Below are positions 5,206-62,473 of a stretch of 64,000 nucleotides of DNA, one piece after another. Both the position numbers and the translations under genes were made by a program. The notes beneath the pieces were generated by a model, which was given only the letters and a program-made list of their open reading frames with translations, was not told the origin of the DNA and did no database searches. Source of the stretch: Minisyncoccota bacterium (lineage in GTDB: Bacteria; Patescibacteriota; Minisyncoccia; Phycocordibacterales; UBA9973); contig JBAZYS010000002.1 of assembly GCA_041659205.1 (NCBI GenBank), forward strand, positions 87,806-151,805, read 5' to 3'. Positions within the stretch are counted from its first letter, which is position 1. Every line of letters begins with the position of its first letter.

Positions 5206-5297
5206 ATAGTAGAGTCTATAATATTATAGGGAATAAATCAAATATAAAAATTTAATCTATAATAAAAAACAGAACCCGTTCTTTAATAGCTTTTCAG

Positions 5298-5317
5298 TTA
5301 TCCACAGCTTATCAACA
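5298..5317 (+). promoter_or_regulatory. DnaA boxes in the rpmH-dnaA intergenic region: consensus TTATCCACA (5298..5306) and TTATCAACA (5309..5317)
   Basis: Exact 9-mer DnaA box consensus followed 2 bp later by a one-mismatch box, about 60 bp upstream of the dnaA start. Classic oriC / dnaA autoregulation position. Confidence 0.7.
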
Positions 5318-5372: not shown

Positions 5373-6713
5373 ATGAATACGAAACAGTTGTGGAAAAATT
5401 GTTTGATGAAAATTGAGTCTGGAATGTCTAAAGCAAACTTCAGTACTTGGTTTAAAAATACATCAATTATTAAAGAGGAAACTGGAATTATTTACATCGG
5501 AGTTCCAAATGAGTTTGTCCGCGATTGGTTAATGAATAAATATCACAAACTCATCACTAAAACTATTGCTGAAGCTTATGAGAGTATGCGAGCAGTAGAA
5601 TACACAATTACTAAAATAGAAACTCCGGCCCAAGAAGTAATAACGATCACGGAAAGTGCAGAAAAAGAGCTTCCTTTGAGAGATTTATATATAAACCCAG
5701 GAGACAATCTAAATCCCCGTTACCGTTTCAACTCTTTTATTGTTGGCGCCTTCAACGAGCTCGCTTATGCAGCGTCTCAAGCGATAATAGACTCACCTGG
5801 AACTAAATATAATCCATTTTTTATTTACGGAGGGACTGGTCTTGGAAAAACTCACTTAATCCAAGCAGTAGGTAACTCAATAAAAGACAAGTATCCTGAC
5901 AAAAAAGTGCATTATATGACCTTAGAAAAATTTGCAACTGATTTTATCAACTCCCTTCAGAGCAATAAAGCAAACTCTTTCAAAGAAAAGTATCGTAAAT
6001 ATGATTTATTGATCATCGATGATATCCAATTCATAGGAAAAATGGAAAAAATTCAAGAAGAACTTTTCCATACATTTAATACTTTCTATGAAAACAATAA
6101 ACAAATCATTTTTTCTTCTGATAAACATCCAAACTATATTCCTGAGCTCGCGGACCGTTTAAAGTCACGTTTTGCGGCAGGAATGATAGTAGATATCTCT
6201 GAACCAGAATATGAATCTCGTCTCGCAATCATAAAAGTAAAACTGCGAGAATTAAATATTGTATTAGACGAAGATTTAATAGAATACGTTGCAGGTGCAA
6301 TGCAGGGAAATATCCGAGAGTTGGAGGGGAGCTTAAACCTTATAGTTTGCCAATATCGCTTGAAAAATAAGGCTCCAACCCTTGTAGAAGTAAAAAATTT
6401 ACTTAAAAACAACATGAAGCCAAAGAAAAACATGGCAATAAAAGATGTTGTAAAAATAGTAGCTGAATATTATAAACTAGAAGAAGCTTCTGTTTATGAA
6501 AAAACTAGAAAAAAAGAAATTGTGAAAGCTAGACAAGTTATTATGTATCTACTACGAGAAGATTTTAGTGTTTCTTACCCTTTAATTGGTCAGAAATTGG
6601 GAGGAAAAGACCATACCACAGTCATGCATTCATGTGTAAAAATAAAAGCAGACTTAAAAAATGATTCTCAGTTAATCCAAGAGTTAGAGCAAATAAGAAT
6701 TATGTTTAAATAG
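5373..6713 (+). CDS. dnaA: chromosomal replication initiator DnaA
   Basis: AAA+ Walker A GGTGLGKTHL. C-terminal DNA-binding domain. Conserved rpmH-dnaA-dnaN synteny. Confidence 0.95.
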   Translation: MNTKQLWKNCLMKIESGMSKANFSTWFKNTSIIKEETGIIYIGVPNEFVRDWLMNKYHKLITKTIAEAYESMRAVEYTITKIETPAQEVITITESAEKELPLRDLYINPGDNLNPRYRFNSFIVGAFNELAYAASQAIIDSPGTKYNPFFIYGGTGLGKTHLIQAVGNSIKDKYPDKKVHYMTLEKFATDFINSLQSNKANSFKEKYRKYDLLIIDDIQFIGKMEKIQEELFHTFNTFYENNKQIIFSSDKHPNYIPELADRLKSRFAAGMIVDISEPEYESRLAIIKVKLRELNIVLDEDLIEYVAGAMQGNIRELEGSLNLIVCQYRLKNKAPTLVEVKNLLKNNMKPKKNMAIKDVVKIVAEYYKLEEASVYEKTRKKEIVKARQVIMYLLREDFSVSYPLIGQKLGGKDHTTVMHSCVKIKADLKNDSQLIQELEQIRIMFK

Positions 6714-6951: not shown

Positions 6952-8049
6952 ATGAAAATAGAATGCTCGACAGAAAAAATAAAAAATGTGATTTCTCAAG
7001 TGGAAAGAATTACTGGTAAAAATTTAACCCTTCCAATTCTAAATTCCATCTTATTAATTGCTTCCGGTAATTCTTTAAAATTTAGATCTACAAATTTAAG
7101 TCTTGGTATAGAGATTGAAATCCCGGCAAAAATTGAGAAAGAAGGGAATCTTGCAATATCTGGTTCTGTTTTAAACGCAGTTTTTTCAAACGTTTCCCAA
7201 AATGAAAATGTATTTCTAGAAGAAAAAGATGGAAATCTTTTGATTAAAACAAAAAAAAGCCAAATAAAGCTTAAAAGTCAGCCTTGTGAAGATTTTCCCA
7301 CAATACCAATGGTTACAGGAAATAGTTTTGAAATAGAATCAAGTAAGTTAATAGATGGGATAAAATCAGTTTATTATAGTTCTTCTGTTTCAGATATTAA
7401 ACCTGAAATATCAAGTGTTTTTCTTTATACAAATGACGAGAATCTTGTTTTTGTTTCCACTGATTCGTTTAGGCTTGCAGAAAAGAAGGTCAAAGTAAAA
7501 GGGTTTGAGGAGATTTTAGGAATTCTTATTCCATATAAAAACATAGGAGAAATATTGAAAGTTTTTGGAGAAGTTAAAGGTGTAATTAAAGTGTGTTTTA
7601 ATAAAAACCAAATTTCTTTTTCTTCTGAAAATACCTACCTTACATCCCGAATAATAGACGGAATATTTCCAGATTACAGACAAATTATTCCAAAAGAATC
7701 CTCAACCGATGTGGTGGTGCTCAAGCAAGATTTATTGAATGCTTTAAAACTTTCAAATATTTTTTCAGATAAGTTTAACCAAGTTAATCTTAAAATTAAC
7801 CCCAAAGAAAAAGTTTTTGAGCTCTCTTCATCAAATAATGATATTGGTGAAAATAAAACATATTTAGATGCTGTGTTGAGAGGGGAGGAAGTAGAACTTG
7901 GGTTTAATTATAAGTATTTTTTAGATTGTTTTCAGTCAATCAATACAGACAGTGTTAACATAAAGTTGTCCGGGGCTTCTCGTCCAATAGTTATCTCTCC
8001 TGTTTCTGATTCATCCTTTACTTATCTCATAATGCCAATGAATAGATAA
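6952..8049 (+). CDS. dnaN: DNA polymerase III beta subunit (sliding clamp)
   Basis: Three-domain ~365 aa protein directly after dnaA with a typical DnaN N-terminus. Confidence 0.9.
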   Translation: MKIECSTEKIKNVISQVERITGKNLTLPILNSILLIASGNSLKFRSTNLSLGIEIEIPAKIEKEGNLAISGSVLNAVFSNVSQNENVFLEEKDGNLLIKTKKSQIKLKSQPCEDFPTIPMVTGNSFEIESSKLIDGIKSVYYSSSVSDIKPEISSVFLYTNDENLVFVSTDSFRLAEKKVKVKGFEEILGILIPYKNIGEILKVFGEVKGVIKVCFNKNQISFSSENTYLTSRIIDGIFPDYRQIIPKESSTDVVVLKQDLLNALKLSNIFSDKFNQVNLKINPKEKVFELSSSNNDIGENKTYLDAVLRGEEVELGFNYKYFLDCFQSINTDSVNIKLSGASRPIVISPVSDSSFTYLIMPMNR

Positions 8050-10898: not shown

Positions 10899-12095
10899 AT
10901 GAAAAAGCAAGTTGTTATGGATAAAAATAAAATTAAAAACTTACTTGAGAGAGGAGTTGAAAATATATTTGTTAAAGAGAGCCTAGAAAAAAAGCTTTTT
11001 TCTGGCAAAAAACTTAAAGTTTATTTAGGCATAGATCCCACTGGTCCAACTTTACACATGGGGCATGCCATTCCTCTTTTAAAATTAAAACAATTTCAAG
11101 AATTAGGGCACGAAGTGATTCTTTTGATGGGAGATTTTACTGCTATGATTGGAGACCCAACAGATAAAATGGCTGCGAGAAAACAACTTACTCGAAAAGA
11201 AGTTTTGGATAATTTAAAAAAATATAAAAGACAAGCCTCAGTTTTTTTGAATTTTACTGGTGTGAATAAAGCACAATTTAAATTTAATTCTAAATGGCTT
11301 TCAAAAATGAGCTTCGGAGAGGTTTTGAATTTAGCTTCAAATGTCACAGTGGATCAAATGCTAAAGCGTGATATGTTTGCTCGTAGAAATATAGAGGGAA
11401 AACCTATTTTTATTCATGAATTTATGTACCCCCTTATGCAGGGTTATGACAGCGTTGCGATGGATGTCGACGTAGAAGTTGGTGGAAACGATCAAACCTT
11501 TAATATGTTAATGGGAAGAGATTTAGTTTCTCAAATTTTAAAGAAAGATAAGTCTGTTTTAGCAATGAAACTGCTTGAGGACAATACAGGAAAAAAAATG
11601 GGTAAAACAGAAGGTAATATGGTTTCTTTTGAAGATAAACCAGACGAGATGTTCGGGAAAGTAATGAGCTGGGCAGACCCTTTAATATTTAAAGGCTTTG
11701 AGCTTTGTACCTATATAGAGCTTAGCGAAATAAAAGATTTTGAAAAACAAATACAAAATGGGGCTAATCCTAAAGACATAAAAATGAAACTTGCTTTTGA
11801 AATTGTAAAAATTTACCACGGAGAGAAAAAAGCGAAAGAAGCACAAGAAAATTTTGTGAATACTTTTCAAAAAAAAGAAATCCCAGAAGTGGTGGAAGAA
11901 ATAAAAGGGGAAGGGCTACTTACCACAATCCTTTTGGATGTTAAACTTTTTGAGTCAAAGGGAGAAGTACGTCGTTTGTTTGAAGCTGGGGCAATTAAAG
12001 ACATGACAGGTAATAAAAAAATATCAGGAACAGATGTGGTTATTAAAGGGCACGTTTATAAAATTGGAAAACATAAATTCATAAAAATAAAATAA
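10899..12095 (+). CDS. tyrS: tyrosyl-tRNA synthetase
   Basis: Class I HIGH motif (HMGH) and KMGKT (KMSKS) motif. C-terminal S4-like domain. Start set to the internal Met (MKKQVV); the ORF-track start 10881 is also possible. Confidence 0.9.
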   Translation: MKKQVVMDKNKIKNLLERGVENIFVKESLEKKLFSGKKLKVYLGIDPTGPTLHMGHAIPLLKLKQFQELGHEVILLMGDFTAMIGDPTDKMAARKQLTRKEVLDNLKKYKRQASVFLNFTGVNKAQFKFNSKWLSKMSFGEVLNLASNVTVDQMLKRDMFARRNIEGKPIFIHEFMYPLMQGYDSVAMDVDVEVGGNDQTFNMLMGRDLVSQILKKDKSVLAMKLLEDNTGKKMGKTEGNMVSFEDKPDEMFGKVMSWADPLIFKGFELCTYIELSEIKDFEKQIQNGANPKDIKMKLAFEIVKIYHGEKKAKEAQENFVNTFQKKEIPEVVEEIKGEGLLTTILLDVKLFESKGEVRRLFEAGAIKDMTGNKKISGTDVVIKGHVYKIGKHKFIKIK

Positions 12096-12104
12096 ATAAA
12101 AAAA

Positions 12105-12128
12105 CCCACCGATATGGTGGGTTTTTTT
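12105..12128 (+). terminator. rho-independent terminator after tyrS (CCCACC-GATAT-GGTGGG + T7)
   Basis: Perfect 6-bp GC stem, 5-nt loop, run of 7 T. Confidence 0.8.
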
Positions 12129-12129
12129 A

Positions 12130-12258
12130 TTAGCTGTCTTTGTCTGGATCTTCTTCATCGAGACCAAAATCAGTGATTCCTTCAGGAGGAAGATCGAGCT
12201 CGTCGTCGAGATCCATCTTAAAACTCCCTTCCTCTATGTCTTCATCCTCGTCGTGCAT
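12130..12258 (-). CDS. possible small acidic protein (42 aa, MHDEDEDIEEGSFKMDLDDELDLPPEGITDFGLDEEDPDKDS)
   Basis: ATG-initiated ORF not in the track, found by manual translation. Extremely acidic. It starts just after a terminator and has no supporting homology. Confidence 0.2.
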   Translation of the reverse strand: MHDEDEDIEEGSFKMDLDDELDLPPEGITDFGLDEEDPDKDS

Positions 12259-12374
12259 ATTTTTTTTAATTTAAATTTTTAATAAGCGACCAAAAACAAA
12301 CGCTATCTAATTTATTCTTTTGTAACAAAATCCAAAAGGATTGGCAATAGCAAATGTGGATAACCTAACTATAG

Positions 12375-12470
12375 AAATATAGTCTTTTAAAAAGCATTGC
12401 GACCAGCTACCGAGCGAGTATAGCAAATTTTCAGCAGAAAATTATGTGCGGTTTTTAAAAGACTATATTT
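12375..12470 (+). repeat. GC-rich miniature repeat family 2, copy 1, enclosed by a 19-bp perfect inverted repeat
   Basis: Core 12394..12451 (GCATTGCGACCAGCTACCGAGCGAGTATAGCAAATTTTCAGCAGAAAATTATGTGCGG) shares AATTTTTCAGCAGAAAAATAT and a GC-rich hairpin with the copies at 54148 and 62386. Flanks AAATATAGTCTTTTAAAAA and TTTTTAAAAGACTATATTT are perfect inverted repeats; the right one overlaps the ruvC stop. Confidence 0.7.
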
Positions 12471-12958
12471 TTATAGTTTTGCCCTTTTAAATGTGCAAAA
12501 GCTGTAATAGCGATGGCAATAGCATCCAATTCATCGTCTGACTTTTTAGAATTATCTATATCCACTAATATTTTTACCATTTTTATTATTTGTTCTTTAT
12601 TTGCTTTTCCATAACCCGTGGTAGCTATTTTTATTTGAGGGGGGGAGGCTTCAAATATTTTTAATCCAGCATTTGTGGCTTCATAAATTACTACCCCGCG
12701 TGCTTCGGCGACGTGCATGACTGTTTTATGATTAGTAGTTAAAAATAAAGTTTCTATCGAAAGAACATCAGGTTTGTATTTTTTTATTATTTTTTTTACT
12801 TCTTCACCGATTAAAAGTAATCGTTCATTAAATTCTAATTTGGCAGAAGTTTTAAAGCATTCTGAAAAAATTACAGCTTCTTTTTTATCACCTTGTTTTT
12901 TCTCTAAGACCGCGACACCGAGGCGTTCATATCCTGGATCTATTCCTAAAATTATCAT
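12455..12958 (-). CDS. ruvC: crossover junction endodeoxyribonuclease RuvC
   Basis: MIILGIDPGYERLGVAVLE with RNase-H-like fold catalytic Asp/Glu. 167 aa. Confidence 0.9.
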   Translation of the reverse strand: MIILGIDPGYERLGVAVLEKKQGDKKEAVIFSECFKTSAKLEFNERLLLIGEEVKKIIKKYKPDVLSIETLFLTTNHKTVMHVAEARGVVIYEATNAGLKIFEASPPQIKIATTGYGKANKEQIIKMVKILVDIDNSKKSDDELDAIAIAITAFAHLKGQNYKNIVF

Positions 12959-13125
12959 AACTAAAGTTTAACATAATATGTGGATATTTTAATTGACTTT
13001 AGAAATATTAGTGATATATTAAACGTAATTTCCTCTCTGGATGTTTTTCTTTGAGAGGGTGTTCCTTTCAAAGATTCTGGAGATCCACCACAACCAGGGC
13101 CTAAAAGCCCTAAGCAGGAGGATTC

Positions 13126-13275
13126 ATGAAGAAATTCACCGCGCTCATCCCGATCAGCTCGTTCCTGACCCCGGTCATGACGCTGACCTTCGAGCTCCAG
13201 CCCAACGCCCACGGCCAAAGCGGCGCCGTCGGCACGATCTCCATCGGCCACCCCGTCACCCGTAACGGCACTTGA
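13126..13275 (+). CDS. small ORF (49 aa) inside a GC-rich mini-island, preceded by a perfect Shine-Dalgarno
   Basis: AGGAGG at 13116..13121, 4 nt before the ATG. Product MKKFTALIPISSFLTPVMTLTFELQPNAHGQSGAVGTISIGHPVTRNGT. It is antisense to the ruvB-yebC-ruvC transcription direction. Confidence 0.3.
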   Translation: MKKFTALIPISSFLTPVMTLTFELQPNAHGQSGAVGTISIGHPVTRNGT

Positions 13276-13440
13276 ATTAGGGAAAGCATCACGTTGGTGC
13301 TTTCCCAAAAACTCAAACGCCTCCGAAGGAACGGGTTGTTGAAGAAAGGGGAGGCCTCTCACGAGGCCTCCCCCGACTATCAAAAGTCATTAAGATTTTT
13401 TATTTTAAAAAAACACTGGTGGCTTTTTTAATTTGTCTTT

Positions 13441-13977
13441 TTATTCAGCATTAGTATAAACATCCTGCACATCATCATTCTCCTCAATGTCTTCTATGAG
13501 TTTATCTAAAAGTTCTAAGTCTTCATCAGAAAGAGGAATGGAACTATTTGGAACCCAAATAAGTCCTTCTGGGCTTTTTTGTTTAGTAAATGCCCAAGAC
13601 GCAGAACCGATAGCTCCTAAAGTAAAACCATTTTTTGTAAGGATATGTTTTATATCTTGAGCTGTTCTGTTTTTACTATCCGTTAGAGTTTCAATAATAA
13701 TTCCTGCTCCACCCGGGCCATGTGCTTCATAAGTAATGGCATCCATATGGGCAGATGGTTCGCTAGCTTTTTTAACAGCTCTTTCTATAACATCCCCAGA
13801 CATATTTACCTTTTTTGCTTTTTCTATTGCAGCACGAAGTCCAGGAGATTCCTTGCCACCCGAGAGTTTCGCTTCGACAGAAATATAGCGTACAAGCTTA
13901 GAAAAGATTTTGCTTTTCTTCGAGTCAGTAATTGCTTTCTTGTGTTTTATTTGTGCCCATTTATTATGTCCTGACAT
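13441..13977 (-). CDS. yebC: YebC/PmpR-family DNA-binding regulator (short form)
   Basis: N-terminus MSGHNKWAQIKHKKA is the family hallmark. Located between ruvB and ruvC as in many bacteria. Confidence 0.85.
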   Translation of the reverse strand: MSGHNKWAQIKHKKAITDSKKSKIFSKLVRYISVEAKLSGGKESPGLRAAIEKAKKVNMSGDVIERAVKKASEPSAHMDAITYEAHGPGGAGIIIETLTDSKNRTAQDIKHILTKNGFTLGAIGSASWAFTKQKSPEGLIWVPNSSIPLSDEDLELLDKLIEDIEENDDVQDVYTNAE

Positions 13978-13982
13978 ATTTT

Positions 13983-15035
13983 TTATATTAATTTATTTTG
14001 CAAATTTTCTGGTAAGTCGAAATCTAGATGTTCATATGCTTTGCTTGTTGCTACTCTTCCACGCGCTGTACGCTCAAGGAGACCAAGCTGTATTAAATAT
14101 GGCTCTATTACTTCTTCTACGGTAGCTTCTTCTTCGGACATTGCAGCACCAATAGTTTTTAGCCCTACGGGGCCACCCTTGAATTTTTCAATTAATATTT
14201 CTAAGAATTTTCTATCGGAAGAGTTTAACCCAATATCATCAATTGCGAGCATATTTAAGGCTTCTTTTACTGTTTTTTTATCTAAATCTTTTTTGTGTAC
14301 TTGGGCAAAGTCTCGACAACGTTTCAAAAAGTAGTTTGCAGTACGTGGAGTGAAGCGACTTCGTTCCGCAATTTCTTTTAATGCTTCTTCTTCCAGTTTT
14401 ATTTTTAAAAGTTTACTGGACCTTTCGATAATTTTTGCAATTTCTTCATTGGAATAAAATTCTAAACGGAAAACTCCTCCCGAAAAACGAGAACGAAGAG
14501 GGGAGGAAACCATCGCGACACGAGTGGTGGCTGCAATTAATGTGAAGGGAGGTAAGTCGAGTTGAATGGTTCGTGCGGATGGGCCCTTGCCGATAATAAT
14601 ATCTAAAACGCCAGACTCCATCGCAGGGTAGAGAATTTCCTCAACCATTTTATTAAGTCGATGAATTTCATCTATAAAAAGAATATCTCCAGCAGCCAAG
14701 TTTGTGAGAATAGAAGCGAGGTCACCAACTTTTTCTATCGCTGGGCCAGAAGTAATTTTCATTTGTCTGCCAGTTTCTTTTGCAATCAAATGCGCGAGAG
14801 TTGTTTTCCCTAATCCTGGTGGTCCATAGAAAAGAATATGTTCCGGGATGTGTCCGCGCTCTTCGGCCGCTCGCAGTAAGACATTTAGGTTATCTTTTAT
14901 GTGTTTTTGACCGATATATTCGTCCCAGTGGGTAGGGCGGAGAGTTTGATCAAGAAAAGAGTCATCAATACCCCCTTTTTGTTCGATGCTTGAATTGACT
15001 ATTTCTTTAGCTTTTTTACTTGACATTGGTTTCAT
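13983..15035 (-). CDS. ruvB: Holliday junction branch migration helicase RuvB
   Basis: AAA+ Walker A GPPGLGKTTLA, sensor motifs and winged-helix C-terminus. Confidence 0.95.
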   Translation of the reverse strand: MKPMSSKKAKEIVNSSIEQKGGIDDSFLDQTLRPTHWDEYIGQKHIKDNLNVLLRAAEERGHIPEHILFYGPPGLGKTTLAHLIAKETGRQMKITSGPAIEKVGDLASILTNLAAGDILFIDEIHRLNKMVEEILYPAMESGVLDIIIGKGPSARTIQLDLPPFTLIAATTRVAMVSSPLRSRFSGGVFRLEFYSNEEIAKIIERSSKLLKIKLEEEALKEIAERSRFTPRTANYFLKRCRDFAQVHKKDLDKKTVKEALNMLAIDDIGLNSSDRKFLEILIEKFKGGPVGLKTIGAAMSEEEATVEEVIEPYLIQLGLLERTARGRVATSKAYEHLDFDLPENLQNKLI

Positions 15036-44736: not shown

Positions 44737-45471
44737 TCAGTGCCCGTTGCCGGTGGTTCCTCCACCGATTTGGCCGGAAGGAGCACTGTCTCCTCCACCG
44801 AATGCACGTCCCCCGATGTACGCTGCCGCGAGATGCACGAAGAACGTCTTCCAGGGATGATCCCTCCAGCAGTGGGTGTACCAGTTGCCCTTCGGGGGGA
44901 CAACGGTATTTTCCTTCGGCGGGGGGTTCTTCTTGACGTAAGCCGCGAACGCGGCGTCTAGATCTTCTTTGGTCAGCTGTTGTCTCCCAACGAGGACGTC
45001 CAACTTGCTGTCCATGGAGTCTAGCTTGGCTAATACCAGCTGCATTTCGTTGCAGCTCTTTTCGTACGCCTCCGGGTAGGAGACGATTTTTCCCTTCGGT
45101 TGCCACCCGGTGGTGACAACTTCGTTGCCGCAGACGGCAATCCAGAGGGCGACTTTGGTTTCCTCGTCCACCATGACGAGAACACCAGCGGGAAGAATGC
45201 CCGACGATTCAGTGTTGTTTTCACCCCTGAGGGTGATGATCGGGGAGTCGTGTTCCAAGACGATCCCGATTTCTCTCCGCCAGTTGGGCTTGCGGGGAGA
45301 CAGGTCAATCGGCTTGCCCGCATTTTGCGGGTGCGTATTGAGCCTGAAGTACCTCGCCCCTGACTGTACCTGCGTCGCATGCGTCGGTGTCTGCGCGTTG
45401 GCGATTGAGGCACCAGCGACGAGAAACATTGCCACGGTAATCGTGGCCACTCCTGACAGAATACTTTTCAT
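44737..45471 (-). CDS. GC-rich (~58% GC) putative horizontally acquired secreted protein (244 aa) of unknown function
   Basis: ATG start. Signal peptide MKSILSGVATITVAMFLVAGASIANA. Gly-rich C-terminus. Codon usage (GGC, CCG, AAG) is foreign to the surrounding ~33% GC DNA. A hairpin terminator follows at about 44688..44716. Confidence 0.6.
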   Translation of the reverse strand: MKSILSGVATITVAMFLVAGASIANAQTPTHATQVQSGARYFRLNTHPQNAGKPIDLSPRKPNWRREIGIVLEHDSPIITLRGENNTESSGILPAGVLVMVDEETKVALWIAVCGNEVVTTGWQPKGKIVSYPEAYEKSCNEMQLVLAKLDSMDSKLDVLVGRQQLTKEDLDAAFAAYVKKNPPPKENTVVPPKGNWYTHCWRDHPWKTFFVHLAAAYIGGRAFGGGDSAPSGQIGGGTTGNGH

Positions 45472-45703: not shown

Positions 45704-45775
45704 GCCCTCATAGTTTAATGGATAGAATGCGAGCTTGCGGAGTTTGCGATGTAGGTTCGATTCCTACTGAGGGCA
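45704..45775 (+). tRNA. tRNA-Arg-like (anticodon loop TTGCGGA, anticodon GCG), close paralogue of tRNA-Arg(TCT) at 52505
   Basis: 72-nt cloverleaf. Acceptor GCCCTCA/TGAGGGC. T-arm GTAGGTTCGATTCCTAC. Anticodon stem has 3 Watson-Crick + 2 G-U pairs, so it may be divergent or a pseudogene. Confidence 0.55.
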
Positions 45776-45811
45776 CTAGCACGAAAGAAGCCAACTGCTT
45801 GGCTTTACGTA

Positions 45812-54128: not shown

Positions 54129-54147
54129 CAAAAGCGAAGCTTTTGTG

Positions 54148-54213
54148 AGTCCGCAGCGCGACGGCGCGAGGAGCGGGCCGCGAAATTTTTCAGCAGAAAA
54201 ATATTTGCGACCC
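54148..54213 (+). repeat. GC-rich miniature repeat family 2, copy 2
   Basis: AGTCCGCAGCGCGACGGCGCGAGGAGCGGGCCGCGAAATTTTTCAGCAGAAAAATATTTGCGACCC. The hairpin GCGC-GACG-GCGC covaries with GCCC-GACG-GGGC in copy 3. It sits between tRNA-Leu and tRNA-His. Confidence 0.7.
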
Positions 54214-54260
54214 AAATGATTAGCATTTTTATGCTTTTTTTGTTATAACTATTCATACAT

Positions 54261-56417: not shown

Positions 56418-56993
56418 ATGTGGCCAAAAGGCCCAAAAGGAGACCTCGTGTCCGAAAATACTAAGCCGGAAGAACTCGAAGTGATCGAGGAGATCGAAGA
56501 TCTTCTCGTTATCGTGGACAGAAGCAAGGTCAAGCTTCTTCCAGCGACAAAGGGTGTTGAGAAGTTTCACACCCTCGTTGAAGGCGGGCAGATTTGCCTC
56601 AACCCGTCGCAAGTGTGGCCGGAGGAATTTCCGGTCTCGGTGGAGTTCCTGGAAGAGAGCGAAGGGAAAGAAACTCCCGAAGTCCTGATTATCGGCCACC
56701 GGATTGCCGCCGGGTCGGGGACCCTTCCGGAAGTTTTCTCCTTCCAAAAGGAGGTATTCGAGAAGGGCACTCTGGTGGACGAACAGATCATCATGTTCTG
56801 CCGGAAGTTTCCGGATGAGCTGAGGTCGAAGAACCTCTTCCCCATGAAGGAGGGGGAAGAAGAGTTCGTCGTCGTTCTGTATCGGAATGAACAAAACCTG
56901 GTCGTCAAAGAGAAGTATTCACTGAAGGCCCCAAGGTTGTTCACGCCGCAGGATTGCCTGTTGGTTTGGATTTCCTACAAGATCACGACCTAG
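56418..56993 (+). CDS. GC-rich (~52% GC) putative horizontally acquired acidic protein (191 aa), function unknown
   Basis: Long ATG ORF in a compositionally foreign ~650-bp island. Own consensus promoter upstream and two hairpins downstream (ACGACCTAG-TCTC-CTAGGTCGT overlapping the stop, then a terminator). Confidence 0.55.
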   Translation: MWPKGPKGDLVSENTKPEELEVIEEIEDLLVIVDRSKVKLLPATKGVEKFHTLVEGGQICLNPSQVWPEEFPVSVEFLEESEGKETPEVLIIGHRIAAGSGTLPEVFSFQKEVFEKGTLVDEQIIMFCRKFPDELRSKNLFPMKEGEEEFVVVLYRNEQNLVVKEKYSLKAPRLFTPQDCLLVWISYKITT

Positions 56994-61958: not shown

Positions 61959-62381
61959 ATGGCAAAGAAAATAACTAAAAAAATTAAATTACAAATCCAG
62001 GCCGCAAAGGCAACCCCTGCGCCCCCTTTAGGGCCCGCACTCGGTCAAGCTGGTATTAACATTGGTGATTTCGTTACTAAGTTTAACGCTGCAACAGCTA
62101 AGATGGCTGGAGACAAAGTTGGAGTTTCTATCACTGTTTACGAAGACCGAAGTTATGATTTCGTTATTAAGACTCCTCCCGTTACAGGACTTATCCTTAA
62201 AGCAGCTGGTATAGAGAAAGGTTCAGGTAAAAACGCTTCTACAAAAGTTGGTAAAATAACTAAAGCTCAGGCTCTAGAAATTGCTAACAAGAAACGCGCA
62301 GACTTGAATGCCAAGGACGACCAAGGTGCGATCAACATCGTCGCCGGCTCCGCTCGAAGCATGGGGGTAGAAGTAATATAA
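61959..62381 (+). CDS. rplK: 50S ribosomal protein L11
   Basis: [35 protein letters not shown] is the canonical L11 N-terminus. Confidence 0.95.
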
Positions 62382-62473
62382 ATTACTTATACCGGCCGGA
62401 GCCCGACGGGGCGAGGCGTGCCCAGACAATTTTTCAGTAGAAAAATATGTGTGGGTAGAAGTAATATAAATTA
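62366..62473 (+). mobile_element. GC-rich miniature repeat family 2, copy 3: a 68-bp insert flanked by 20-bp direct repeats GGTAGAAGTAATATAAATTA (target-site-duplication-like) that include the rplK stop
   Basis: DR1 at 62366..62385 covers rplK codons GVEVI*. The insert 62386..62453 is CTTATACCGGCCGGAGCCCGACGGGGCGAGGCGTGCCCAGACAATTTTTCAGTAGAAAAATATGTGTG. DR2 is at 62454..62473. Confidence 0.7.

What the first reader, a model, noticed from the sequence alone, without database searches (positions are those of the whole stretch)
13075..13385. Third GC-rich mini-island between yebC and ruvC: Shine-Dalgarno-led 49-aa ORF antisense to the ruv operon, plus two stable hairpins sharing a TCACG loop
Seen in sequence.

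About 300 bp of 60% or higher GC lies inside the ruvB-yebC-ruvC gene string, all of which are on the minus strand.

On the plus strand, AGGAGG-4nt-ATG starts a 49-aa ORF (MKKFTALIPISSFLTPVMTLTFELQPNAHGQSGAVGTISIGHPVTRNGT). It is followed by GGGAAAGCA-TCACGTTGG-TGCTTTCCC and GGAGGCCTC-TCACG-AGGCCTCC.

The perfect Shine-Dalgarno is notable because most genes in this window lack strong Shine-Dalgarno sequences.

Candidate explanations: an acquired small-protein or leader-peptide gene; a cis-antisense RNA to the ruv operon; or a structured RNA with an incidental ORF.
Basis: seen in the sequence. Interest (0 to 1): 0.5.

Follow-up and report, generated by a model that had tools for sequence, protein, structure and literature searches.

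The report
Fast-evolving GC-rich minigene beside ruvC
The GC-rich island is a real, self-contained small gene (promoter, ribosome-binding site, 49-codon reading frame, terminator) that sits in a slot shared by many related ultra-small groundwater bacteria, where its expression signals are kept but its peptide changes beyond recognition from species to species.

Summary
In a 36% GC Paceibacterota (Nomurabacteria-like) genome, 13075-13385 is 58% GC and carries an AGGAGG-led 49-aa ORF followed by two strong hairpins.

The ORF has GC3 = 0.92, against 0.21-0.32 for host genes (p = 2e-7). It is one of very few Shine-Dalgarno-led genes in a genome that otherwise looks leaderless or SD-less.

It is not a private, recent import and not a known RNA. 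About a third of 76 related genomes carry a homologous unit at the same place, between ruvB/yebC and ruvC on the opposite strand. That unit has a DnaA-box-like 9-mer, a sigma-70-type promoter, a structured leader, a start signal, a GC3-rich ORF of 4-163 aa, a GC-rich hairpin, and an AT-rich terminator hairpin with compensatory changes and U-G pairs on the ORF strand.

The flanks are as conserved as neighbouring genes. The ORF bodies are unalignable, and all tested products are orphans. ORF bodies are no more structured than codon shuffles.

Best reading: an independent, translated mini-mRNA of about 400 nt from an undescribed, hypervariable small-ORF locus. What the peptide does is unknown. 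A DGR, an integron cassette, an attenuator, a type I toxin and a ruv antisense RNA were tested and not supported.

The parts
12979..12987 (.). DnaA-box-like 9-mer TGTGGATAT (reverse complement ATATCCACA, 8 of 9 matches to TTATCCACA). It lies 5 nt upstream of the minigene -35 and just upstream of the divergent ruvC extended -10.
   Evidence: One search gives the coordinates. A box with at most 1 mismatch is present in 21 of 31 family members, against about 0.07 expected per member by my own estimate. In nine members where both were scored it lies 4-8 nt from the -35. Binding by DnaA is inferred, not tested.
12993..13020 (+). Sigma-70-type promoter: TTGACT, 16-nt spacer, TG-n-TATATT (extended -10). 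The predicted transcription start is near 13027.
   Evidence: scores it 10 of 12 with the TG. Equivalent promoters (TTGACA/TTGACG, 16-18 nt, TATCAT/TATAAT) occur upstream of family members: 14 of 31 reach at least 9 of 12 under a strict regex. The transcription start is inferred.
13027..13125 (+). 5' leader of about 99 nt. UCCUCU (13031-13036) pairs with the SD (13117-13122). There is an inner hairpin 13048-13058 / 13064-13074, which contains the CTTTGA motif, and a small hairpin 13096-13111.
   Evidence: MFE -34.6 kcal/mol, z = -2.3. CTTTGA occurs in the leader of 8 of 31 family members against about 4% expected, mostly at -58 to -77. Stem-loop leaders were seen in relatives.
13116..13121 (+). 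Shine-Dalgarno sequence AGGAGG, 4 nt before the ATG.
   Evidence: It is exceptional in this genome: 6 of 60 starts have any SD-like tetramer.
13126..13275 (+). 49-aa ORF MKKFTALIPISSFLTPVMTLTFELQPNAHGQSGAVGTISIGHPVTRNGT. GC3 is 0.92 and C/G is 1.8.
   Evidence: It is an orphan apart from its own MAG record WC847_01555. The N-terminus is shared with L021 (KxFTAL.P). AF2 single-sequence prediction gives mean pLDDT 68 and three beta-strands.
13280..13306 (+). GC-rich hairpin 1 (GGGAAAGCA...TGCTTTCCC), starting 4 nt after the stop codon.
   Evidence: It has no U-tract on either strand and its sequence is not conserved in relatives.
13348..13373 (.). GC-rich hairpin 2 (11-bp stem, loop TCAC), the family's conserved GC hairpin. 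Read on the minus strand it is followed by TTTCTTC, so it probably also terminates yebC.
   Evidence: A GC hairpin at the equivalent position occurs in nearly all family members, often with a GNRA loop and G-U pairs on the ORF strand (by reading the sequences).
13382..13431 (+). AT-rich intrinsic terminator hairpin: 11-bp stem AAAAGUCAUUA / UGGUGGCUUUU with three U-G pairs, then a U-tract.
   Evidence: it forms on the plus strand only. The HMM and covariance model hit this element, on the ORF strand, essentially only at the ruv locus in 1.2 Mb of related DNA. 84% of cells are paired, 8 of 11 pairs show compensatory changes, 0 of 500 shuffles reach the observed values, and U-G pairs are abundant.

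Best explanation
The island is the body of an independent, monocistronic small-ORF gene on the plus strand.

How it is built:
- A strong sigma-70-type promoter (12993-13020), with a DnaA-box-like site beside it, starts an RNA of about 400 nt.
- The leader is structured and can mask the Shine-Dalgarno sequence.
- A 49-codon, C-rich ORF with almost only G/C-ending codons is translated.
- Two GC-rich hairpins and an AT-rich terminator (ending about 13431) close the transcript.
- The transcript ends back-to-back with yebC, and the promoter is divergent from that of ruvC.

Where it belongs: it is one member of a previously undescribed locus of Nomurabacteria-like Paceibacterota. In that locus the expression signals (promoter, start signal, 3' hairpins, terminator) are inherited and conserved, while the coding payload turns over extremely fast in sequence and length.

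What is shown: the anatomy, the coding periodicity, the homologous slot, the conserved flanks against the hypervariable ORF, the strand-specific terminator, and the orphan status.

What is inferred:
- That it is transcribed and translated.
- That the product is a lineage-specific small peptide under relaxed or diversifying selection, rather than a conserved enzyme partner.
- That the GC-rich, SD-dependent make-up marks a separate expression class, shared with the genes at 44737-45471 and 56418-56993. This class may favour a stable mRNA with few AU-rich sites, in a genome that otherwise uses leaderless or SD-less starts.
For: Anatomy in the window:
- Promoter, 10 of 12 with an extended -10.
- SD plus ATG.
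- GC1/2/3 = 0.51/0.49/0.92 against host GC3 of 0.21-0.32, p = 2e-7.
- Hairpins, z = -6.6, and a terminator that forms on the plus strand only.

Homologous slot:
- In 125 related loci the same architecture recurs between ruvB/yebC and ruvC on the opposite strand, with 31 distinct ORFs of 9-163 aa and GC3 of 0.48-1.0. A few shorter ORFs of 4-6 aa were read by eye.
- The terminator element is found, on the ORF strand, essentially only at this locus. Its stem covaries and carries U-G pairs.

Conserved flanks against a variable ORF:
- L008 versus L112: yebC is 83.5% identical, the 3' UTR 86% over 123 nt, the promoter 100% over 25 nt, and the SD/ATGAA is shared, yet the ORFs (28 and 38 aa) are unalignable.
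- L023 versus L047: 87-89% identity over most of 11 kb, but the cassette interior is non-homologous.
- Pairwise peptide similarity is about null: mean z = 0.13, with only N-terminal matches such as window-L021.
- As a control, the 42-aa acidic sORF next to ruvC is conserved in 61 loci.

Not a structured RNA: ORF bodies are no more structured than codon shuffles, and there is no Rfam hit.

The composition is maintained: homologues of the other GC3-rich gene keep GC3 of 0.72 and the same promoter at 50% amino-acid identity, in an AT-rich genome.

The SD is exceptional in this genome.
Against: - There is no expression data of any kind.
- The peptide has no homologue, no domain and only a modest structure prediction.
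- Across the family the product is not conserved in sequence or length (4-163 aa). The length distribution is close to what random stops in GC-rich DNA would give (my own estimate, not computed). This argues against a conserved peptide function and fits translation without a functional product.
- Some relatives have an ORF-less or nearly ORF-less unit (L001, L014, L041, L022).
- The window's closest relatives by RuvB (L030, L033, L052) have no unit at all.
- Why GC3 stays near 0.9 is unexplained.
- An AGGAGG-ATG pair alone is not beyond chance.
Confidence: 0.55

Rival explanations
1. RNA-centred unit. What is selected is the transcript, or transcription itself: a stable, strongly expressed RNA, or a convergent/divergent transcription unit that insulates ruvB/yebC from ruvC and may be DnaA-controlled. 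The ORF is translated only incidentally, or to protect a C-rich, unstructured RNA, for example from Rho or RNases.
For: - Only expression signals and 3' structures are conserved. The payload is free in sequence and length.
- ORF-less versions exist (L001, L014, L041).
- The mRNA is C-rich and G-poor: C/G is 1.8 here and 1.22 at the family median, against 0.6-1.0 in host genes. It has no excess structure.
- A DnaA-box-like site is conserved beside the promoter.
Against: - No conserved RNA domain other than generic hairpins, and no Rfam match.
- The strong frame-specific GC3 periodicity is hard to explain if the frame does not matter.
- So are the start signals kept in each clade, whether an SD or a CA-rich leader.
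- So is the way ORFs fill the space up to 6-41 nt before the hairpin (read from the sequences).
Confidence: 0.2
2. Decaying remnant. The slot once held a longer GC-rich gene for a secreted protein, as L013 (110 aa) and L083 (163 aa) still do. The 49-aa ORF would then be a truncated, no longer functional leftover whose promoter and terminator persist because ruvC and yebC use the same control regions.
For: - The long versions have signal-peptide-like N-termini (MKRFWGLFAVL..., MRKAFWGLGVL...) that loosely resemble MKKFTALIPISSFL.
- ORF lengths are scattered.
- There are empty or AT-rich versions (L001, L047).
Against: - GC3 of 0.92-0.96 in the short ORFs (window, L007, L008) is higher than in the long ones (0.87-0.88). 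A decaying sequence in a genome with GC3 of about 0.25 should drift to AT.
- The SD is perfect, and the ORF ends exactly at hairpin 1.
- The similarity to the long proteins is not significant.
Confidence: 0.12
3. Recent horizontal acquisition. The 300-bp island would be a fragment or minigene imported from a high-GC, SD-using organism or mobile element into an insertion hot spot.
For: - Composition, codon usage, SD and a consensus promoter are all foreign-looking for this genome.
- The closest relatives lack the unit.
- The same spacer hosts other insertions in relatives.
Against: - No homologue of the peptide or of the long family members outside these bacteria, in 5.8 billion clusters or 1.84 billion representatives.
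- No DNA match in phage or plasmid collections or viral contigs.
- No integrase, tRNA or repeats at the borders.
- The untranslated regions are homologous with those of many relatives.
- GC3-richness persists in a native gene family at 50% identity.
- In L008/L112 the conserved flank includes the SD and the start codon.
Confidence: 0.08
4. Targeted hypermutation. The ORF would be a variable region rewritten by a diversity-generating retroelement or a similar frame-aware mechanism. NNC/NNG codons and a GC hairpin downstream would be its marks.
For: - A hypervariable coding segment lies between conserved flanks.
- 65% of codons end in C, and GC1 and GC2 are both about 0.5.
- A GC-rich hairpin follows, as in DGR targets (this last point is from my own knowledge).
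Against: - No template-repeat-like copy in the 64-kb window, even when any mismatch at template adenines is allowed.
- No reverse-transcriptase-like motif in any long ORF.
- No second copy within 5 kb on either side in any relative.
- Length varies as well as sequence, which DGRs do not do.
Confidence: 0.04

Closest known systems
Bacterial small-ORF (sORF) genes with their own promoter and terminator, for example B. subtilis sda, a 46-aa protein whose promoter carries DnaA boxes (from my own knowledge)
   Same: A stand-alone unit of about 400 nt in an intergenic spacer, with an ORF of roughly 50 codons and a DnaA-box-like site next to the promoter.
   Different: Sda and most characterised sORF proteins are conserved in sequence. 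Here the product is unalignable between close relatives, and the gene has a codon composition opposite to that of its genome.
Type I toxin-antitoxin loci (hok/sok, tisB/istR-1, fst)
   Same: A small ORF, a structured leader that can mask the SD, a stable hairpin-rich mRNA, and an intergenic position.
   Different: Family peptides are mostly hydrophilic and weakly basic, with no transmembrane helix. No convincing antisense promoter was found. The sequences are hypervariable.
Transcription attenuators with leader peptides (thrL, hisL)
   Same: An SD-led tiny ORF followed by GC-rich hairpins and a U-tract terminator. Some peptides are rich in Thr, His and Ile.
   Different: There is no gene downstream on the same strand, because the unit runs into the 3' end of yebC. 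No consistent regulatory codon run exists across the family.
Integron gene cassettes and other hypervariable cassette loci
   Same: An orphan, compositionally deviant, variable payload between conserved flanks at a fixed chromosomal site.
   Different: No attC-like site was seen by eye and no integrase was seen nearby. The conserved flank includes the promoter, the SD and the start codon, so the payload does not bring its own start.
Variable regions of diversity-generating retroelements
   Same: A hypervariable coding stretch rich in NNC codons, followed by a GC hairpin.
   Different: No template repeat and no reverse transcriptase. The whole ORF varies, including its length.

Membership tests
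Any Rfam RNA family | Covariance-model match at or near the gathering score | tested here: not met
   The window at the gathering threshold gives only 7 tRNAs. An E-value scan of 12900-13500 gives a best hit of E = 0.12 at 24.7 bits against a 229-bit cutoff. Thirteen related loci give no match.
Protein-coding small ORF | Start codon with a ribosome-binding signal and frame-specific codon periodicity | tested here: met
   AGGAGG-4 nt-ATG. GC1/2/3 = 0.51/0.49/0.92, p = 2e-7. The same pattern occurs in most family members, where GC3 ranges 0.48-1.0.
Protein-coding small ORF | Amino-acid sequence conserved among orthologues | tested here: not met
   Mean pairwise z = 0.13, with only short N-terminal matches. 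The control sORF at 12130-12258 is conserved in 61 loci.
Protein-coding small ORF | Evidence of translation (Ribo-seq or peptide detection) | not testable with these tools
   No expression data are available.
Intrinsic (Rho-independent) terminator | Stable hairpin followed by a U-tract on the transcribed strand, conserved as a structure | tested here: met
   At 13382-13431, an 11-bp stem plus UUUUUU forms on the plus strand only. 8 of 11 pairs show compensatory changes, 0 of 500 shuffles reach the observed values, and U-G pairs are present.
Cis-antisense RNA to the ruv genes | Transcript overlaps ruv coding sequence on the opposite strand | tested here: not met
   The predicted transcript (about 13027-13431) lies between the ruvC start (12958) and the yebC stop (13441). 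Only an overlap with the yebC 3' UTR is possible, and that is inferred.
Leader-peptide attenuator | Regulated gene downstream on the same strand | tested here: not met
   The next genes, yebC and ruvB, are convergent. This holds in all relatives.
Type I toxin | Hydrophobic, membrane-spanning small peptide | tested here: not met
   The window peptide's best 19-mer scores 1.53 on the Kyte-Doolittle scale. Most family peptides have a negative GRAVY value.
Type I toxin | Overlapping antisense RNA antitoxin | tested here: inconclusive
   The only minus-strand match in the unit is a weak 9-of-12 promoter-like site in AT-rich DNA at 13431-13402. The scan as a whole is not above the shuffle expectation: 7 found against 5.2.
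Diversity-generating retroelement target | Template repeat that differs from the variable region at adenines | tested here: not met
   The adenine-tolerant scan of the window finds only self matches. No paralogous copies occur in related loci. The rest of the genome was not available.
Diversity-generating retroelement target | Reverse transcriptase nearby | tested here: not met
   There are two [YF]xDD matches in ORFs of at least 200 aa, neither in an RT-like sequence context. This was a motif scan only, not an HMM search.
Integron cassette | attC recombination site at the 3' end and an integrase or cassette array | tested here: not met
   No RYYYAAC...GTTRRRY-bounded site was seen by inspection. 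The unit is single or at most double. The conserved flank includes the SD and the ATG. An integrase was not searched for by HMM.
Recently acquired genomic islet | Homologue in a donor lineage or mobile element | tested here: not met
   Only self hits for the peptide. The long family members are orphans. No phage, plasmid or viral-contig match.
Recently acquired genomic islet | Atypical composition relative to the host | tested here: met
   GC3 of 0.92 against 0.21-0.32. However, the same regime persists in a native family at 50% identity.

The most novel reading that the evidence does not exclude
The ruvB/yebC-ruvC spacer of these bacteria could be a dedicated expression slot. A conserved promoter associated with a DnaA-box-like site, a ribosome-binding site, a start codon and a double-hairpin terminator would drive a payload that is continually replaced or hyper-evolved. 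This would happen under a frame-aware process that enriches G/C-ending codons. That would be a new kind of hypervariable small-peptide system with no retroelement or integrase. It would belong to a distinct class of SD-dependent, GC-rich genes in a genome that is otherwise leaderless and AT-rich. One extreme version is that these genes are tuned to a different translation regime or cellular context.
Probability: 0.15. Interest if true: 0.8.

Novelty: new variant of a known kind. Interest (0 to 1): 0.55.

Why it matters
These bacteria, from the Candidate Phyla Radiation (CPR), are uncultured, tiny and full of genes of unknown function. Their small genes and regulatory RNAs are almost unexplored.

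This locus shows an unusual evolutionary pattern. Expression signals are kept as well as neighbouring essential genes, while the coding part turns over completely. It still keeps a codon composition (GC3 of about 0.9) opposite to the genome's (about 0.25), and a Shine-Dalgarno start in a genome that hardly uses one.

If the peptide is real, this is a compact example of very fast small-protein evolution, possibly tied to interaction with hosts or competitors. If only the RNA matters, it is an undescribed RNA locus.

Either way it flags a second gene-expression class in these genomes: leadered, SD-led and GC-rich. Gene finders and codon-usage analyses would mistake that class for foreign DNA.

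Tried and rejected
- Known RNA families. Three Rfam searches found nothing. ARAGORN found no tmRNA and only tRNAs.
- Protein homology for the 49-aa peptide. Only its own MAG record, plus one marginal hit (E = 2e-4) to a repeat protein, judged compositional. No Pfam, PHROG or NCBIfam match.
- Exact-protein look-ups of the peptide, RuvC and YebC. None on record.
- A repeat elsewhere in the window. No copy of the island.
- A DGR. No template repeat, no reverse-transcriptase-like motif, no paralogues.
- Phage or plasmid origin. No DNA or protein match.
- Structured RNA in the ORF body. Rejected by codon-shuffle z-scores.
- GC-biased gene conversion spreading from a recombination hot spot. Considered unlikely, because the adjacent ruvC and yebC have GC3 of 0.21 and 0.24.
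- A leader CTTTGA motif pairing with TCAAAG in the terminator as an antiterminator. Dropped: the leader motif is enriched (8 of 31), but the 3' partner is not (5 of 31 against about 2 expected).
- Resemblance of MKKFTAL... to type IV prepilin leaders, and of the terminator to RNase P P4. Judged coincidental by eye.
- The metagenome scan with RuvC found no near-identical strain, so no within-species comparison of the ORF was possible.
- Literature searches found nothing on such loci.
Full report
**Observation**

The window is a 36% GC genome. The 49-aa peptide's only database match is its own record, 'MAG: hypothetical protein WC847_01555 [Candidatus Paceibacterota bacterium]'. The nearest RuvB relatives are Nomurabacteria/Paceibacterota MAGs at up to 92% identity in the best aligned segment.

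ruvC (12455-12958), yebC (13441-13977) and ruvB (13983-15035) lie on the minus strand and have the expected Pfam domains. The 482-bp yebC-ruvC spacer holds a block at 13075-13385 that is 57.6% GC. The ORF within it is 63% GC and windows peak at 0.63-0.70. The spacers on either side are 27% and 22% GC.

AGGAGG-ATTC-ATG (13116-13128) opens the quoted 49-aa ORF (13126-13275). Hairpins follow at 13280-13306 and 13348-13373.

An AGGAGG-N3-9-ATG by itself is not beyond chance: 2 found in the window against 2.4 expected. The ORF's codon periodicity is. GC1/2/3 = 0.51/0.49/0.92, Fisher p = 2e-7, while every ordinary gene in the window has GC3 of 0.21-0.32.

Only 6 of 60 starts have any SD-like tetramer. 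Many genes have a TATAAT-like hexamer a few bases before the ATG, which suggests leaderless mRNAs.

**Anatomy on the plus strand**

- An extended -10 promoter, TTGACT-16-TGaTATATT, lies at 12993-13020.
- The leader is about 99 nt. In it UCCUCU (13031-13036) can pair with the SD, and there are two inner hairpins (z = -2.3).
- The ORF follows, and then the two GC hairpins (z = -6.6 for the 3' region).
- An AT-rich hairpin at 13382-13431 has an 11-bp stem with three U-G pairs and a U-tract. It forms only on the plus strand.
- Read on the minus strand, hairpin 2 is followed by TTTCTTC, so it probably terminates yebC.

The predicted RNA (about 13027-13431) overlaps no ruv coding sequence.

**Relatives**

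Eighty genome loci were fetched with RuvB and 45 metagenome loci with RuvC.

In about 32 of the 76 genomes that have both genes, ruvB-(yebC)-ruvC are packed with spacers of 0-110 bp. In about a third there is instead a spacer of 200-750 bp. It lies after ruvB, after yebC, or between ruvB and ruvC where yebC is absent.

Read on the strand opposite the ruv genes, that spacer has the same lay-out as the window:
- a TGTGGATAA/TTATCCACA 9-mer, with at most 1 mismatch in 21 of 31 units, lying 4-8 nt from the -35 in nine units where both were scored;
- a TTGAC-N16-18-TATCAT/TATAAT promoter;
- a stem-loop leader;
- an SD, or in one clade a CA-rich stretch, before the ATG;
- a GC3-rich ORF;
- a GC-rich hairpin, often with a GNRA loop and G-U pairs on this strand;
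- an AT-rich hairpin with a U-tract.

An HMM and a covariance model of the AT hairpin hit this locus, on the ORF strand, and essentially nowhere else in about 1.2 Mb. The three extra covariance-model hits are weak, with E-values of 0.008-0.018.

On the model-based alignment, an 11-pair stem is 84% paired. Eight pairs show changes on both sides, 0 of 500 shuffles reach the observed values, the slid controls are much lower, and many pairs are U-G. On the other strand those U-G pairs would be C-A mismatches. The terminator therefore belongs to the plus-strand transcript, and the slot is one homologous locus rather than a generic repeat.

**What varies**

The curated ORFs run from 9 to 163 aa, and a few shorter ones of 4-6 aa were read by eye. 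GC3 is 0.48-1.0, and about 0.7 or more in most.

Their peptides are essentially unrelated: mean pairwise z = 0.13. The only matches are short N-terminal ones:
- window and L021 share KxFTAL.P;
- L070, L102, L076 and L042 share MKxHxGAH;
- L013 and L083 are alike.

This is not simply phylogenetic depth. L008 and L112 have yebC at 83.5% nucleotide identity. The unit's promoter is 100% identical over 25 nt, the SD and ATGAA are shared, and the 3' UTR is 86% identical over 123 nt. Yet the ORFs (28 and 38 aa) cannot be aligned.

L023 and L047 align at 87-89% over most of 11 kb, but the unit's interior is non-homologous.

As an internal control, the 42-aa acidic sORF just downstream of ruvC (12130-12258) is recognisable in 61 of the 125 loci, with a near-invariant DFGLDEEDPDKD tail.

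Some relatives have nearly empty units, with promoter, hairpin and terminator but no real ORF (L001, L014, L041). The window's closest relatives have none.

**What it is not**

- Not a known RNA: there is no Rfam family.
- Not a structured RNA in its body: 21 ORF bodies fold no better than codon-shuffled versions, mean z = +0.3.
- No donor is detectable. The peptide and the long family members (L083, L013) are orphans in 5.8 billion clusters and 1.84 billion representatives. They have no Pfam, PHROG or NCBIfam hit. There is no DNA or protein match in phage, plasmid or viral collections.
- Not a DGR target, as far as can be seen. There is no adenine-tolerant template copy in 64 kb, no reverse-transcriptase-like motif, and no second copy near any relative.
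- Not an attenuator, because nothing lies downstream on the same strand.
- Not a typical type I toxin, because the peptides are mostly hydrophilic.

**The odd composition**

Two other genes in the window share the regime:
- 44737-45471 (244 aa, signal peptide, GC3 0.70, SD TAGGAG, TTGACA/TG-n-ATACAAT promoter);
- 56418-56993 (191 aa, GC3 0.69, perfect TTGACA-17-TATAAT promoter, and a leader with the same TCTTTGACG motif as many units).

The first has two homologues at about 50% identity. One is in another AT-rich genome, where the neighbouring gene has GC3 of 0.21. That homologue keeps GC3 of 0.72 and an almost identical promoter. The other homologue has GC3 of 0.41.

At that divergence synonymous sites are saturated. 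The G/C-ending codon usage is therefore maintained in a native gene class, not left over from a recent import.

The class is also C-rich and G-poor on the mRNA. C/G is 1.8 in the window ORF and 1.22 at the family median, against 0.6-1.0 in host genes. Adjacent ruvC and yebC have normal GC3, which argues against a local recombination-driven GC bias. The cause remains unexplained.

My inference is selection at the mRNA level, for few AU-rich sites and a stable message. The SD would then be needed because such an mRNA cannot use the AT-rich or leaderless start mode of the rest of the genome.

**Interpretation**

The best-supported reading is an independent, translated mini-mRNA from an undescribed, lineage-specific small-ORF locus with conserved expression signals and a hypervariable payload (confidence about 0.55). 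The peptide (49 aa, weakly basic, modestly predicted as three beta-strands at pLDDT 68) has no assignable function. Its family-wide lack of conservation means any function is lineage-specific or depends on composition.

The main rival (about 0.2) is that the transcript or transcription itself is what matters, and translation is incidental or protective. Lesser rivals are a decaying remnant of a secreted-protein gene (0.12), recent acquisition (0.08) and targeted hypermutation (0.04).

Of its interpretations, only 'small-protein gene' survives, without the 'acquired' qualifier.

Noticed in passing
window 12130-12258 (-), with box 12355-12364 and terminator about 12090-12125: A 42-aa, very acidic small ORF (MHDEDEDIEEGSFKMDLDDELDLPPEGITDFGLDEEDPDKDS) lies just downstream of ruvC. 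It is conserved in 61 of 125 related loci, with a near-invariant C-terminal DFGLDEEDPDKD. It has its own GTTATCCACA box and a strong terminator. Its function is unknown.
   Followed up: partly
whole window (60 gene starts): The genome hardly uses Shine-Dalgarno sequences: 6 of 60 starts have any SD-like tetramer. Many genes, among them dnaA, ruvC and the PBP gene, have a TATAAT-like or TGnTAAACT hexamer ending 6-8 nt before the ATG. This suggests a largely leaderless transcriptome.
   Followed up: partly
window 44737-45471 (-) and 56418-56993 (+): Two further orphan genes have GC3 of about 0.70, in a genome at about 0.25, and near-consensus sigma-70-type promoters. The first has an SD and a signal peptide. 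Its homologue in another AT-rich genome keeps GC3 of 0.72 and the same promoter. They appear to form a distinct GC-rich gene class together with the minigene.
   Followed up: partly
window 5297-5317, 5373-6713, 6952-8049: dnaA and dnaN are here (NCBIfam), with tandem DnaA boxes TTATCCACAGCTTATCAACA just upstream of dnaA. The ruv locus and the minigene therefore lie about 7 kb from the likely replication origin. The same 9-mer recurs beside the minigene promoter in most relatives.
   Followed up: partly
window 54130-54232, 62380-62450 and 12428-12450: Short GC-rich stretches after tRNA-Leu and after the gene ending at 62381 share a motif that ends in the palindrome AATTTTTCAG(C/T)AGAAAAATAT. 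A third copy of the palindrome lies just downstream of ruvC. It could be a repeated terminator or promoter element.
   Followed up: no
related loci, e.g. L013 6712-6850, L036 6440-6538, L045, L102, L017, L056, L064, L008 (locus coordinates approximate): Families of GC-rich multi-hairpin palindromic elements (for example CTCCCCTTATCAAGGGAGG...TCCCCCTGATAAGGGGGA, CTCCTCCTTATGGAGGAGGAG) are inserted next to the ruvC promoter or at the ruvB end in many relatives. They look like REP- or MITE-like repeats.
   Followed up: no
L009 3489-4236 and L096 924-2500: In some relatives the same ruvB-ruvC spacer holds a pair of small AT-rich genes under a TTGAC...TATACT promoter. From their size and arrangement they could be a toxin-antitoxin module, but this was not checked. 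Other relatives hold larger insertions. The spacer is a general insertion hot spot.
   Followed up: no
window 45704-45776: ARAGORN calls a tRNA-Arg with anticodon GCG. From my own knowledge, that anticodon is uncommon in bacteria. It would read the CGC/CGU codons.
   Followed up: no
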